From the NCBI RefSeq assembly GCF_003334385.1, contig NZ_QOWN01000006.1: a stretch of 64,000 nt of DNA; one strand, given 5' to 3'. The position numbers were made by a program, and so were the translations under genes. This document shows positions 14,487 through 15,155 of this stretch, piece by piece; within the stretch, counting starts at the first letter, position 1; each line of letters begins with the position of its first letter. The DNA is from Escherichia coli (GTDB taxonomy: Bacteria > Pseudomonadota > Gammaproteobacteria > Enterobacterales > Enterobacteriaceae). Under the pieces are notes generated by a model. That model saw only the letters and a program-made list of their open reading frames with translations. It had not been told where the DNA came from and searched no databases.

Positions 14487-15155
14487 TTTTTTTGCGCTGA
14501 CTTCAGTTATTTAACAGAACAGTGCCTGGTAGTAACAACAATAATTTGCCAAGACAAATAAGTAAGACAAACTCAGACACGCTCATACTTGAGTCGTGTC
14601 TTTTTTATTATGTCTGTAGAAAAAAAATGCGAAAAAGGCGAACAATAAATACACAACTCAGCCATACAGACTGGCAGCGCAAATGTTTCCAGGAGCAAGT
14701 CATCTGTCATGGTAAAGCTAACCAGAAATATAGGTTAATTTTGGTGTTTAAACCTTTTTTACTTGTTAGTATGATACAAAGGCTTTCAAAAAAGCTGGGA
14801 AATTCAACAACTCTTGGAAATTATGGACTTTGTCCCGCGGCTTTAATCTGACGGCCGCGTTCCTTTTTTGACTCAATTATTGACCCCTTCTCTACGCAAC
14901 TTCAGTTCCCGCCAGCAACTTTGCGGCAGTTTCATAGGATCAATGTCTAAAAGAATAATGGTGACCGATAAGAAAACGACTGAATAACTGTAGATTTTCG
15001 CTCGAAACCTTCCTGTCAGCTCCATAGCGAATCAAGTGCTGAATGTCACAGTATCGAACAGAAAACAGTGACGATCTAACCCTTCAAGAATATTCTACGA
15101 TTGTTCTGTTTAGGAAAAGCAAGGCGGGAAGTCAGGAGATAAGTCATTGATAAAG

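What the first reader, a model, noticed from the sequence alone, without database searches (positions are those of the whole stretch)
14487..15155. No yodB-like gene between zinT and tRNA-Ser
In the K-12 gene order I recall, a cytochrome b561 homologue (yodB, about 176 aa) lies between zinT and serU. Here the 670-bp interval has no membrane-protein ORF, only a low-complexity 109-codon ORF without an RBS and two hairpin plus T-run elements (about 14568-14610 and 14845-14878). Either the gene is deleted or replaced in this lineage, or a small non-coding transcript occupies the site.
Basis: partly seen in the sequence, partly recalled or inferred. Interest (0 to 1): 0.3.

Follow-up and report, generated by a model that had tools for sequence, protein, structure and literature searches.

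The report
Native yodB-less zinT–serU spacer
This E. coli strain lacks the accessory cytochrome gene yodB between zinT and the serine tRNA, a common and already recorded variant (about 42% of complete E. coli genomes) that looks like the original state of the locus rather than a deletion.

Summary
zinT ends at 14486, tRNA-Ser(CGA) serU lies at 15156-15245 (-), and the 669 bp between them carry no yodB and no yodB remnant. K-12 does have zinT-yodB-serU, with a 1442-bp spacer.

Window 14709-15155 matches the distal K-12 spacer at 96%. Window 14487-14708 (222 bp) sits where K-12 has 995 bp that include yodB.

This is a two-allele polymorphism: 2302 of 5426 complete E. coli genomes carry the window allele, including known B2 strains, and 3114 carry the yodB segment.

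E. albertii has no yodB, and its spacer aligns collinearly with the window across the K-12 breakpoint. A cryptic-clade Escherichia also lacks yodB. The closest non-E. coli YodB homologues (74-77% identity) are mostly prophage cargo genes. The yodB-less state is therefore probably native, and K-12-type strains imported yodB.

The 109-codon ORF shows no coding signature. Hairpin 1 is the zinT terminator. Hairpin 2 matches a mapped "orphan" RNA 3' end in K-12, but it lies in DNA shared with yodB-carrying strains, so it does not replace yodB.

Verdict: ordinary and already recorded in the literature. Low interest.

The parts
13836..14486 (+). zinT (metal-binding protein ZinT), left boundary of the spacer
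   Evidence: ORF. PGAP annotation of the identical strain 7/2. dN/dS 0.06-0.11 against other yodB-less alleles.
14487..14708 (.). Allele-specific 222 bp: the native, fast-evolving zinT 3' flank. K-12 has a 995-bp segment with yodB at this position.
   Evidence: K-12 alignment and blastn. Present in 2302 of 5426 genomes with identity down to 93%. Collinear with E. albertii (z = 13.5); only weakly similar to the K-12 left flank (z = 5.4).
14575..14611 (+). zinT intrinsic terminator: stem 14575-14601, T-run 14601-14606 followed by ATTAT
   Evidence: Fold -17.1 kcal/mol, z = -3.6. It starts 89 nt after the zinT stop. A homologous hairpin is present in K-12 (z = -3.7) and E. albertii, with an A-U to G-C compensatory pair in E. 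albertii.
14522..14851 (+). 109-codon ORF, judged a chance ORF and not a gene
   Evidence: GTG start with no RBS. It contains the zinT terminator. dN/dS is 0.70-0.74 in frame against 0.46-1.32 in the other two frames. No NCBIfam hit. Not annotated by PGAP under any listed match or in the three fetched records. No equivalent ORF in E. albertii. Its first 62 codons are absent from K-12-type alleles.
14709..15155 (.). 447 bp shared by both alleles (96% to K-12). The K-12 breakpoint lies at 14708/14709.
   Evidence: blastn: window spacer 223-669 = K-12 spacer 996-1442, 95.97%, no gaps. Present in 5421 of 5426 genomes.
14761..14869 (+). 109-bp block present in all E. coli alleles examined but absent from E. 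albertii. It is bounded by the 8-bp direct repeat CCTTTTTT (14753-14760 and 14862-14869).
   Evidence: Alignment and sequence. The core 14781-14859 is nearly invariant among E. coli alleles. No second copy in the window.
14747..14775 (+). Promoter-like site TTTAAA-17-TATGAT (9 of 12 matches): weak, unverified
   Evidence: 8 such sites in the region against 4.3 expected from shuffles.
14836..14869 (+). Second intrinsic terminator: 7-bp GC-rich stem, 10-nt loop, UUCC, then U6
   Evidence: Fold. Window 14869 corresponds to K-12 2043181 (+), an 'orphan' Term-seq 3' end in MG1655 in LB OD 2.0 and in M63 (PMC7815308 supplementary file 1).
15009..15155 (-). Highly conserved serU-proximal block (3' flank of the tRNA), function unknown
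   Evidence: 2 variable sites in 147 bp among E. coli alleles. Roughly the serU-proximal 130-145 bp match at 85% in E. albertii and 92% in Escherichia sp. MOD1-EC7003, while the rest of the spacer does not align. No terminator-like fold on the - strand.
15156..15245 (-). serU, tRNA-Ser(CGA), right boundary of the spacer
   Evidence: ARAGORN. Rfam tRNA, 57 bits.

Best explanation
The window carries the native, ancestral-type Escherichia zinT-serU spacer, which never contained yodB.

What the spacer holds, in order:
- the zinT intrinsic terminator;
- about 100 bp of fast-drifting non-coding DNA;
- a second terminator inside a 109-bp E. coli-specific block, which stops rightward transcription before it runs antisense into the convergent serU;
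- a conserved serU 3' flank.

In the lineage leading to K-12-type strains (57% of complete genomes; A, B1 and E examples), the proximal 222 bp were replaced by a foreign 995-bp segment. That segment carries a diverged copy of the zinT terminator region plus a self-contained cytochrome b561 cassette (yodB with its own upstream region). The cassette is of a kind that elsewhere travels as prophage cargo.

Shown: the absence of yodB, the breakpoints, the allele frequencies, collinearity with E. albertii, the prophage context of the nearest YodB homologues, and the K-12 RNA 3' end at hairpin 2.

Inferred: the direction of the event (gain in the K-12 type rather than loss here), and the role of hairpin 2 in shielding serU.
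For: - K-12 has zinT-yodB-serU. Breakpoints lie at the zinT stop codon and at 14708/14709.
- No YodB remnant by TBLASTN.
- 2302 of 5426 genomes carry the window-type 222 bp and 3114 of 5426 carry the K-12 segment. The sum is 5416, so the two alleles are close to mutually exclusive.
- The window allele class is diverse (identity down to 93%; 410 genomes in the 90-95% band). The yodB segment is nearly uniform (3104 of 3114 genomes at 95% or above; lowest full-length hit listed 98.4%).
- E. albertii (L003) has zinT and serU with a 567-bp spacer and no yodB. Its spacer aligns with the window right across the K-12 breakpoint (z = 13.5 against 3.1 for the K-12 left flank).
- Escherichia sp. MOD1-EC7003 also lacks yodB. 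None of 78 ZinT loci from other species and genera has a YodB homologue within 5 kb.
- In zinT and in the shared 447 bp, yodB+ and yodB- alleles differ by only 1.5-5%, much like yodB- alleles among themselves. The DNA right after the zinT stop is nearly unalignable, so that piece was imported.
- YodB has no relatives between 99% and 77% identity apart from truncated or frameshifted E. coli copies. The 74-77% homologues sampled sit between lysis and terminase genes of prophages in Citrobacter portucalensis and in metagenome contigs. DNA similarity there includes about 88 bp upstream of the CDS.
- yodB is 42% G+C.
- Literature: within E. coli ST410, the HPI-positive B5/H24RxC clone is fyuA+ yodB-, while B4/H24RxC is yodB+ fyuA- (PMC10786849). 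The window has HPI about 1.2 kb to the right of serU.
Against: - Only two non-E. coli Escherichia genomes were examined.
- The K-12 left flank keeps a recognisably homologous zinT terminator at the same offset: 93 nt against 88 nt after the stop. So some donor lineage had zinT-terminator-yodB adjacent. That donor was not found, and a zinT-yodB arrangement ancestral to the genus cannot be excluded.
- zinT and the whole spacer are themselves AT-rich (38-40% G+C), so base composition does not single out yodB.
- The phylogroups of the named strains rest on my own knowledge, not on a test run here.
Confidence: 0.7

Rival explanations
1. Loss. zinT-yodB-serU is ancestral, and yodB with its flanks was deleted, either once in an old lineage whose allele then spread by recombination (for example hitch-hiking with the neighbouring HPI island) or in the common ancestor shared with E. 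albertii.
For: - The K-12 left flank contains a homologous zinT terminator, which shows that a zinT-terminator-yodB arrangement existed in some lineage.
- True secondary deletions do occur in yodB-type alleles: 41 of 3114 genomes hold under 80% of the segment, for example H60, which keeps only 820-995.
- The ST410 clones show the allele can be swapped together with HPI.
Against: - No remnant is present.
- The window 222 bp are not a junction scar. They are a full-length homologue of the E. albertii flank and continue across the breakpoint.
- The yodB-less class is far more diverse than the yodB class.
- No other genus has yodB next to zinT.
- The nearest YodB relatives are prophage cargo.
Confidence: 0.22
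2. The site is occupied by a functional gene of another kind: the 109-codon ORF encodes a small protein that takes the place of yodB.
For: The ORF is longer than in 99% of shuffles of the spacer. It stays open in two alleles about 5-7% diverged.
Against: - GTG start without an RBS.
- The zinT terminator lies inside codons 18-29.
- dN/dS of 0.70-0.74 is no different from the two other frames, against 0.06-0.11 for zinT.
- No NCBIfam family. Never annotated by PGAP. No counterpart in E. albertii.
- Its C-terminal 47 codons lie in DNA shared with yodB+ strains, where the N-terminal part is missing.
Confidence: 0.02
3. An unannotated small RNA gene lies in the shared part of the spacer, running from about 14782 to 14869. 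It would be an independent function of this interval, present with or without yodB.
For: - A promoter-like site at 14747-14775.
- A terminator with U6.
- An orphan Term-seq 3' end at the equivalent K-12 position in two conditions.
- 'yodB.serU.IGR' appears among Hfq RIL-seq RNAs.
- The core 14781-14859 has 1 clean variable site where about 9 would be expected.
- The block is a discrete 109-bp indel relative to E. albertii.
Against: - The RIL-seq classifier scores are 0.010 and 0.046, below the authors' 0.1 cut-off, with only 1-2 interaction partners.
- No transcription start data could be retrieved.
- In K-12 the 3' end can be explained as the yodB mRNA terminator, and here as a back-up terminator for zinT read-through.
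- No Rfam family matches, and K-12 RefSeq lists no ncRNA there.
- There is no sequence variation in the stems, so covariation cannot be tested.
- The conserved stretch was chosen after looking at the data.
Confidence: 0.15

Closest known systems
E. coli K-12 MG1655 zinT-yodB-serU locus (b1973-b1975)
   Same: zinT, the distal 447 bp of the spacer (96%), serU, mtfA and asnT are the same, in the same order and orientation.
   Different: K-12 has 995 bp (a diverged zinT flank, the 531-bp yodB and 122 bp more) where the window has 222 bp. The spacer is 1442 bp in K-12 and 669 bp here.
Escherichia albertii NBRC 107761 zinT-serU spacer (L003)
   Same: It has no yodB. The spacer is collinear with the window from the zinT stop to serU, including the terminator hairpin and the region across the K-12 breakpoint.
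   Different: It is 567 bp long and lacks the 109-bp block that holds hairpin 2. Sequence identity is only about 60-70% outside the serU-proximal block.
Prophage-borne cytochrome b561 (PF01292) cargo genes in Citrobacter portucalensis and metagenome contigs
   Same: They are the closest non-E. coli relatives of YodB (74-77% aa identity, about 71% DNA identity, in one group also including about 88 bp upstream). This shows that the cassette absent from the window is mobile.
   Different: They lie between the lysis and terminase genes of prophages, not next to zinT. The window contains none.
E. coli ST410 clones B4/H24RxC (yodB+, fyuA-) and B5/H24RxC (yodB-, fyuA+) (PMC10786849)
   Same: The combination of HPI present and yodB absent is the same as in the window. 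yodB is already used there as a clone-specific marker.
   Different: That paper does not describe the spacer or the direction of the change. I did not determine the window's sequence type.

Membership tests
Cytochrome b561 / YodB (Pfam PF01292 Ni_hydr_CYTB) | An ORF or remnant with detectable similarity to YodB between zinT and serU | tested here: not met
   TBLASTN of K-12 YodB against the spacer and the whole window found nothing better than 12 aa at 19.6 bits. The best whole-window hit had E = 0.049 and lay elsewhere.
Cytochrome b561 / YodB (Pfam PF01292 Ni_hydr_CYTB) | A membrane-protein ORF of about 176 aa with four transmembrane helices | tested here: not met
   The longest ORF in the spacer is the 109-codon ORF, which is basic and Cys-rich with no hydrophobic helices. 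All others are 50 aa or shorter.
Rho-independent (intrinsic) terminator: hairpin 1 | A stable GC-containing stem-loop directly followed by a T-run, downstream of a gene on the same strand | tested here: met
   Stem 14575-14601 and T6 at 14601-14606, starting 89 nt after the zinT stop; -17.1 kcal/mol, z = -3.6. The hairpin is kept in K-12 and E. albertii, with one compensatory pair, while the flanks have diverged.
Rho-independent (intrinsic) terminator: hairpin 2 | A stem-loop plus U-tract, and an RNA 3' end mapped at the U-tract | tested here: met
   7-bp stem and U6. A Term-seq 3' end at K-12 2043181 (+) equals window 14869, the last T of the run, in two growth conditions. The mapping comes from K-12, not from this strain.
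Hfq-dependent small RNA gene | An own promoter or transcription start site giving a discrete short transcript | not testable with these tools
   Only a 9/12 consensus match at 14747-14775. The start-site data sets I tried were not held or had no entry.
Hfq-dependent small RNA gene | Hfq association with many target partners, positioned second in chimeras | tested here: not met
   The published RIL-seq-based sRNA scores for yodB.serU.IGR are 0.010 and 0.046, below the 0.1 cut-off, with 1-2 partners.
Hfq-dependent small RNA gene | A match to a curated RNA family, or an annotated ncRNA in K-12 | tested here: not met
   No Rfam hit in 14487-15155 at E <= 1. No ncRNA feature lies between yodB and serU in NC_000913.3.
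Protein-coding gene (the 109-codon ORF) | Purifying selection in frame, a translation start signal, and homologues | tested here: not met
   dN/dS of 0.70-0.74 is no different from the other frames. No RBS. No NCBIfam hit. No PGAP call. No E. albertii counterpart.
tRNA-associated genomic island at serU | An integrase gene and a duplicated tRNA 3' end flanking inserted DNA next to serU | tested here: not met
   In the window serU is intact and is followed directly by mtfA. Such islands do occur at serU in L002 and E67, and a likely remnant in JNE21-009.

The most novel reading that the evidence does not exclude
The 109-bp E. coli-specific block (14761-14869) may be a compact, unannotated small-RNA gene. 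It is bounded by CCTTTTTT direct repeats, nearly invariant in its core, and ends at a terminator whose 3' end is mapped as 'orphan' in K-12. An RNA from this intergenic region (strand not resolved) is seen at low level on Hfq. If real, the gene pre-dates the arrival of yodB and is present in essentially all E. coli.
Probability: 0.15. Interest if true: 0.3.

Novelty: already known. Interest (0 to 1): 0.1.

Why it matters
It matters little. yodB is an accessory gene of E. coli, and its absence here is the common state in B2-type and many other strains. yodB presence or absence is already used as a clone marker in the literature.

Three modest points come out of the work:
- K-12 is probably the derived state at this locus, so "missing relative to K-12" should not be read as a deletion.
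- yodB looks like a captured mobile cytochrome b561 cassette.
- The spacer holds an experimentally supported orphan terminator and a strongly conserved serU 3' flank, and neither has an assigned function.

Tried and rejected
- Rfam at E <= 1 on 13500-16400 returned only the two tRNAs plus sub-threshold noise (naRNA4/REP, sX4, a plastid motif over the tRNA) and nothing in the spacer.
- NCBIfam on the 109-aa ORF returned nothing.
- The simple terminator scan missed both hairpins and listed three weak minus-strand sites, which I did not pursue.
- Truncated YodB hits at 84-92% identity (P0047, P0059, P0011) might have come from other Escherichia species. All proved to be E. coli copies with frameshifts or assembly errors, 98-99% DNA identity to K-12.
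- YodB against the phage collection gave only a flanking fragment in the record 'Escherichia phage SerU-LTIIb' and 27% hits in Acinetobacter phages.
- I looked for a serU terminator on the minus strand of 15020-15158. The fold is weaker than shuffles, z = +2.6.
- I looked for transcription start data in Thomason 2015 (not held), the Rend-seq annotation paper and Conway 2014 (no supplements held), and Cappable-seq and SMRT-Cappable-seq (no entries).
- A paper search for yodB together with 'phylogroup B2' found nothing.
- A blastn of the 109-bp block against the window found no second copy, so it is not a repeated element in these 64 kb.

Full report
**What is in the window.** The region is the E. 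coli msrP-msrQ-zinT-serU-mtfA-asnT neighbourhood.
- zinT is the ORF at 13836-14486 (+), the same gene PGAP calls in the 100%-identical strain 7/2.
- ARAGORN places tRNA-Ser(CGA) at 15156-15245 (-).
- Its ORFs are a 109-codon GTG-started ORF (14522-14851, +) and several of 50 codons or fewer.
- Both hairpins are real. Hairpin 1 has its stem at 14575-14601 and T6 at 14601-14606 (z = -3.6). Hairpin 2 has its stem at 14836-14842/14853-14859 and T6 at 14864-14869 (z = -2.2).

**Comparison with K-12.** NC_000913.3 is annotated zinT (b1973), yodB (b1974, 531 bp, putative cytochrome b561) and serU (b1975), with a 1442-bp spacer.
- Alignment and blastn show that window 14709-15155 equals the last 447 bp of the K-12 spacer at 96% without gaps. 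Window 14487-14708 (222 bp) stands where K-12 has 995 bp.
- TBLASTN with K-12 YodB finds no remnant in the spacer or anywhere in the 64 kb.
- The only similarity between the 222 bp and the K-12 995 bp is a weak, collinear match to the first ~254 bp (z = 5.4). It centres on the terminator hairpin, which sits 88 nt after the zinT stop here and 93 nt after it in K-12.

**How common it is.** Among 5426 complete E. coli genomes:
- 2302 carry the window-type 222 bp.
- 3114 carry the K-12 yodB segment.
- 5421 carry the shared 447 bp.

The first two numbers sum to 5416, so this is essentially a two-allele polymorphism. Named carriers of the window allele include ABU 83972, ATCC 11775, an APEC O2:K1:H4, an ST1193 and ZH193. 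To my knowledge these are phylogroup B2; I did not test that here. Carriers of yodB include K-12, ATCC 8739, a B strain, O157:H7 and O111:H8. PGAP annotates nothing in the spacer of the window-type genomes, either under the listed matches or in the three fetched records.

**Direction of the change.**
- E. albertii NBRC 107761 has zinT and serU separated by 567 bp with no yodB. That spacer aligns with the window over its whole length, including straight across the K-12 breakpoint at 14708/14709. The semiglobal alignment of the 222 bp to E. albertii scores z = 13.5. The K-12 left flank scores only z = 3.1 against E. albertii.
- Escherichia sp. MOD1-EC7003 also lacks yodB. It has an even shorter spacer and an integrase-bearing island in serU.
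- None of the other 78 ZinT loci recovered from other species and genera has a YodB homologue within 5 kb.
- In zinT and in the shared 447 bp, yodB+ and yodB- alleles differ by 1.5-5%, much like yodB- alleles among themselves. The DNA immediately after the zinT stop is almost unalignable between the two allele classes. One of the two pieces was therefore imported. The window piece is the one that resembles the sister species.
- The window allele class is also much more diverse (identity down to 93%) than the yodB segment (lowest full-length hit listed 98.4%).

**Where yodB comes from.**
- YodB has no full-length relatives between 99% and 77% identity. The partial hits at 84-92% are damaged E. 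coli copies.
- The relatives at 76-77% sit between the lysis cassette and the terminase genes of prophages in Citrobacter portucalensis and in metagenome contigs. One copy lies beside tail-fibre-assembly and DinI genes. A 74% relative lies in a chromosomal-looking context with a dinI-like gene nearby. A Salmonella relative at 65% is in an unrelated chromosomal site.
- DNA similarity to K-12 extends about 88 bp upstream of the CDS in one group, so promoter and gene appear to travel together.
- yodB is 42% G+C, but zinT and the spacer are just as AT-rich, so composition is not decisive.

Taken together, I read the window as the native state and K-12 as the derived one, with confidence about 0.7. 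The main reservation is that the K-12 segment brings its own homologous zinT terminator. Some unsampled donor therefore had zinT-yodB adjacent. In addition, only two non-E. coli Escherichia genomes could be examined.

**Literature.** A study of carbapenem-resistant ST410 reports that clone B5/H24RxC has fyuA but not yodB, and clone B4/H24RxC has yodB but not fyuA. It uses the two genes as qPCR markers (PMC10786849). fyuA belongs to the HPI island. In the window HPI begins just right of asnT, about 1.2 kb from serU (ybtS and a frameshifted integrase). The pattern fits an exchange of the whole zinT-asnT-HPI stretch by flanking recombination, which is my inference. The variable presence of yodB is thus already on record.

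**The 109-codon ORF.** It is longer than in 99% of shuffles of the spacer and stays open in two alleles 5-7% diverged. Everything else argues against a gene:
- It has a GTG start and no RBS.
- It contains the zinT terminator.
- Its dN/dS of 0.70-0.74 is indistinguishable from the other two frames (0.46-1.32), whereas zinT gives 0.06-0.11.
- It has no NCBIfam hit and no counterpart in E. albertii.

I treat it as a chance ORF.

**The hairpins.**
- Hairpin 1 is the zinT terminator. It starts 89 nt after the stop. The hairpin is retained in K-12 and E. albertii although the surrounding sequence has drifted, and E. albertii shows an A-U to G-C compensatory change.
- Hairpin 2 lies in the part shared with K-12. 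Window 14869 corresponds to K-12 2043181 (+). That position is listed as an 'orphan' Term-seq 3' end in MG1655 in LB at OD 2.0 and in M63, with exactly this sequence (PMC7815308 supplementary file 1). It is therefore a working terminator in K-12.
- In K-12 hairpin 2 may simply end the yodB mRNA, 283 nt after the stop. In the window it can stop zinT read-through before it runs antisense into serU.

**A possible small RNA.** Four points keep an independent small RNA possible:
- a weak promoter-like site at 14747-14775;
- a near-invariant core at 14781-14859;
- the whole 109-bp block 14761-14869 is a discrete indel relative to E. albertii, bounded by CCTTTTTT repeats;
- 'yodB.serU.IGR' appears among Hfq RIL-seq RNAs.

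However, that RNA has sRNA scores of only 0.010 and 0.046, below the authors' 0.1 cut-off (PMC8175672). No Rfam family matches, no ncRNA is annotated there in K-12, and I could not retrieve any start-site data. I give this reading about 0.15. In any case it does not replace yodB, because it coexists with yodB in K-12.

**Verdict.** The most likely history is gain in K-12-type strains rather than deletion here. Interest is low.

Noticed in passing
window 14836-14869 (= K-12 2043148-2043181, +): The hairpin plus U6 matches an 'orphan' Term-seq RNA 3' end in MG1655 (LB OD 2.0 and M63; PMC7815308 supplementary file 1). An RNA named yodB.serU.IGR appears at low level in Hfq RIL-seq tables (PMC8175672). 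No gene is annotated for it.
   Followed up: partly
window 14753-14869: A 109-bp block (14761-14869) is present in all E. coli alleles examined and absent from E. albertii. It is bounded by the 8-bp direct repeat CCTTTTTT. Its core 14781-14859 is almost invariant among diverged E. coli alleles. There is no second copy in the window.
   Followed up: partly
window 15009-15155 (3' flank of serU, minus strand): Only 2 variable sites in 147 bp among E. coli alleles. The serU-proximal 130-145 bp match at 85% in E. albertii and 92% in a cryptic-clade Escherichia, while the rest of the spacer does not align. No terminator-like fold on the minus strand (z = +2.6). It could be a functional tRNA 3' trailer, as with 3'ETS-leuZ, but this is untested.
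   Followed up: partly
L002 5803-6300; L097 2348-3568; L098 2471-2542: serU is an insertion hot spot in relatives. An integrase-bearing island interrupts serU in Escherichia sp. MOD1-EC7003. E. coli E67 has an integrase gene directly after the spacer. O166:H15 JNE21-009 has a capsid-gene remnant there. Phage and Stx-prophage records also use the serU/yodB site.
   Followed up: partly
window 16237-17389 and rightwards: The High Pathogenicity Island (yersiniabactin; ybtS in the identical strain 7/2) is inserted at asnT. Its P4-type integrase is split into two ORFs and is annotated as a frameshifted pseudogene in strain 7/2.
   Followed up: partly
L082 4001-4540; L086-L088 4001-4540: Cytochrome b561 genes 76-77% identical to YodB are carried as cargo between the lysis and terminase modules of prophages in Citrobacter portucalensis and in metagenome contigs.
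   Followed up: partly
window 13578-13643: A REP-like palindromic element lies between msrQ and zinT (sub-threshold Rfam naRNA4 hits on both strands, 35.8 and 23.1 bits). The adjacent zinT upstream region 13661-13760 is unusually diverged from K-12, with 13 mismatches per 100 bp.
   Followed up: no
E. coli genome hits H29, H30, H60, H123: A few dozen genomes carry further length variants of the spacer, for example a match starting only at window 14949, or a K-12-type allele that keeps only the last 176 bp of the yodB segment. The interval is prone to indels.
   Followed up: no
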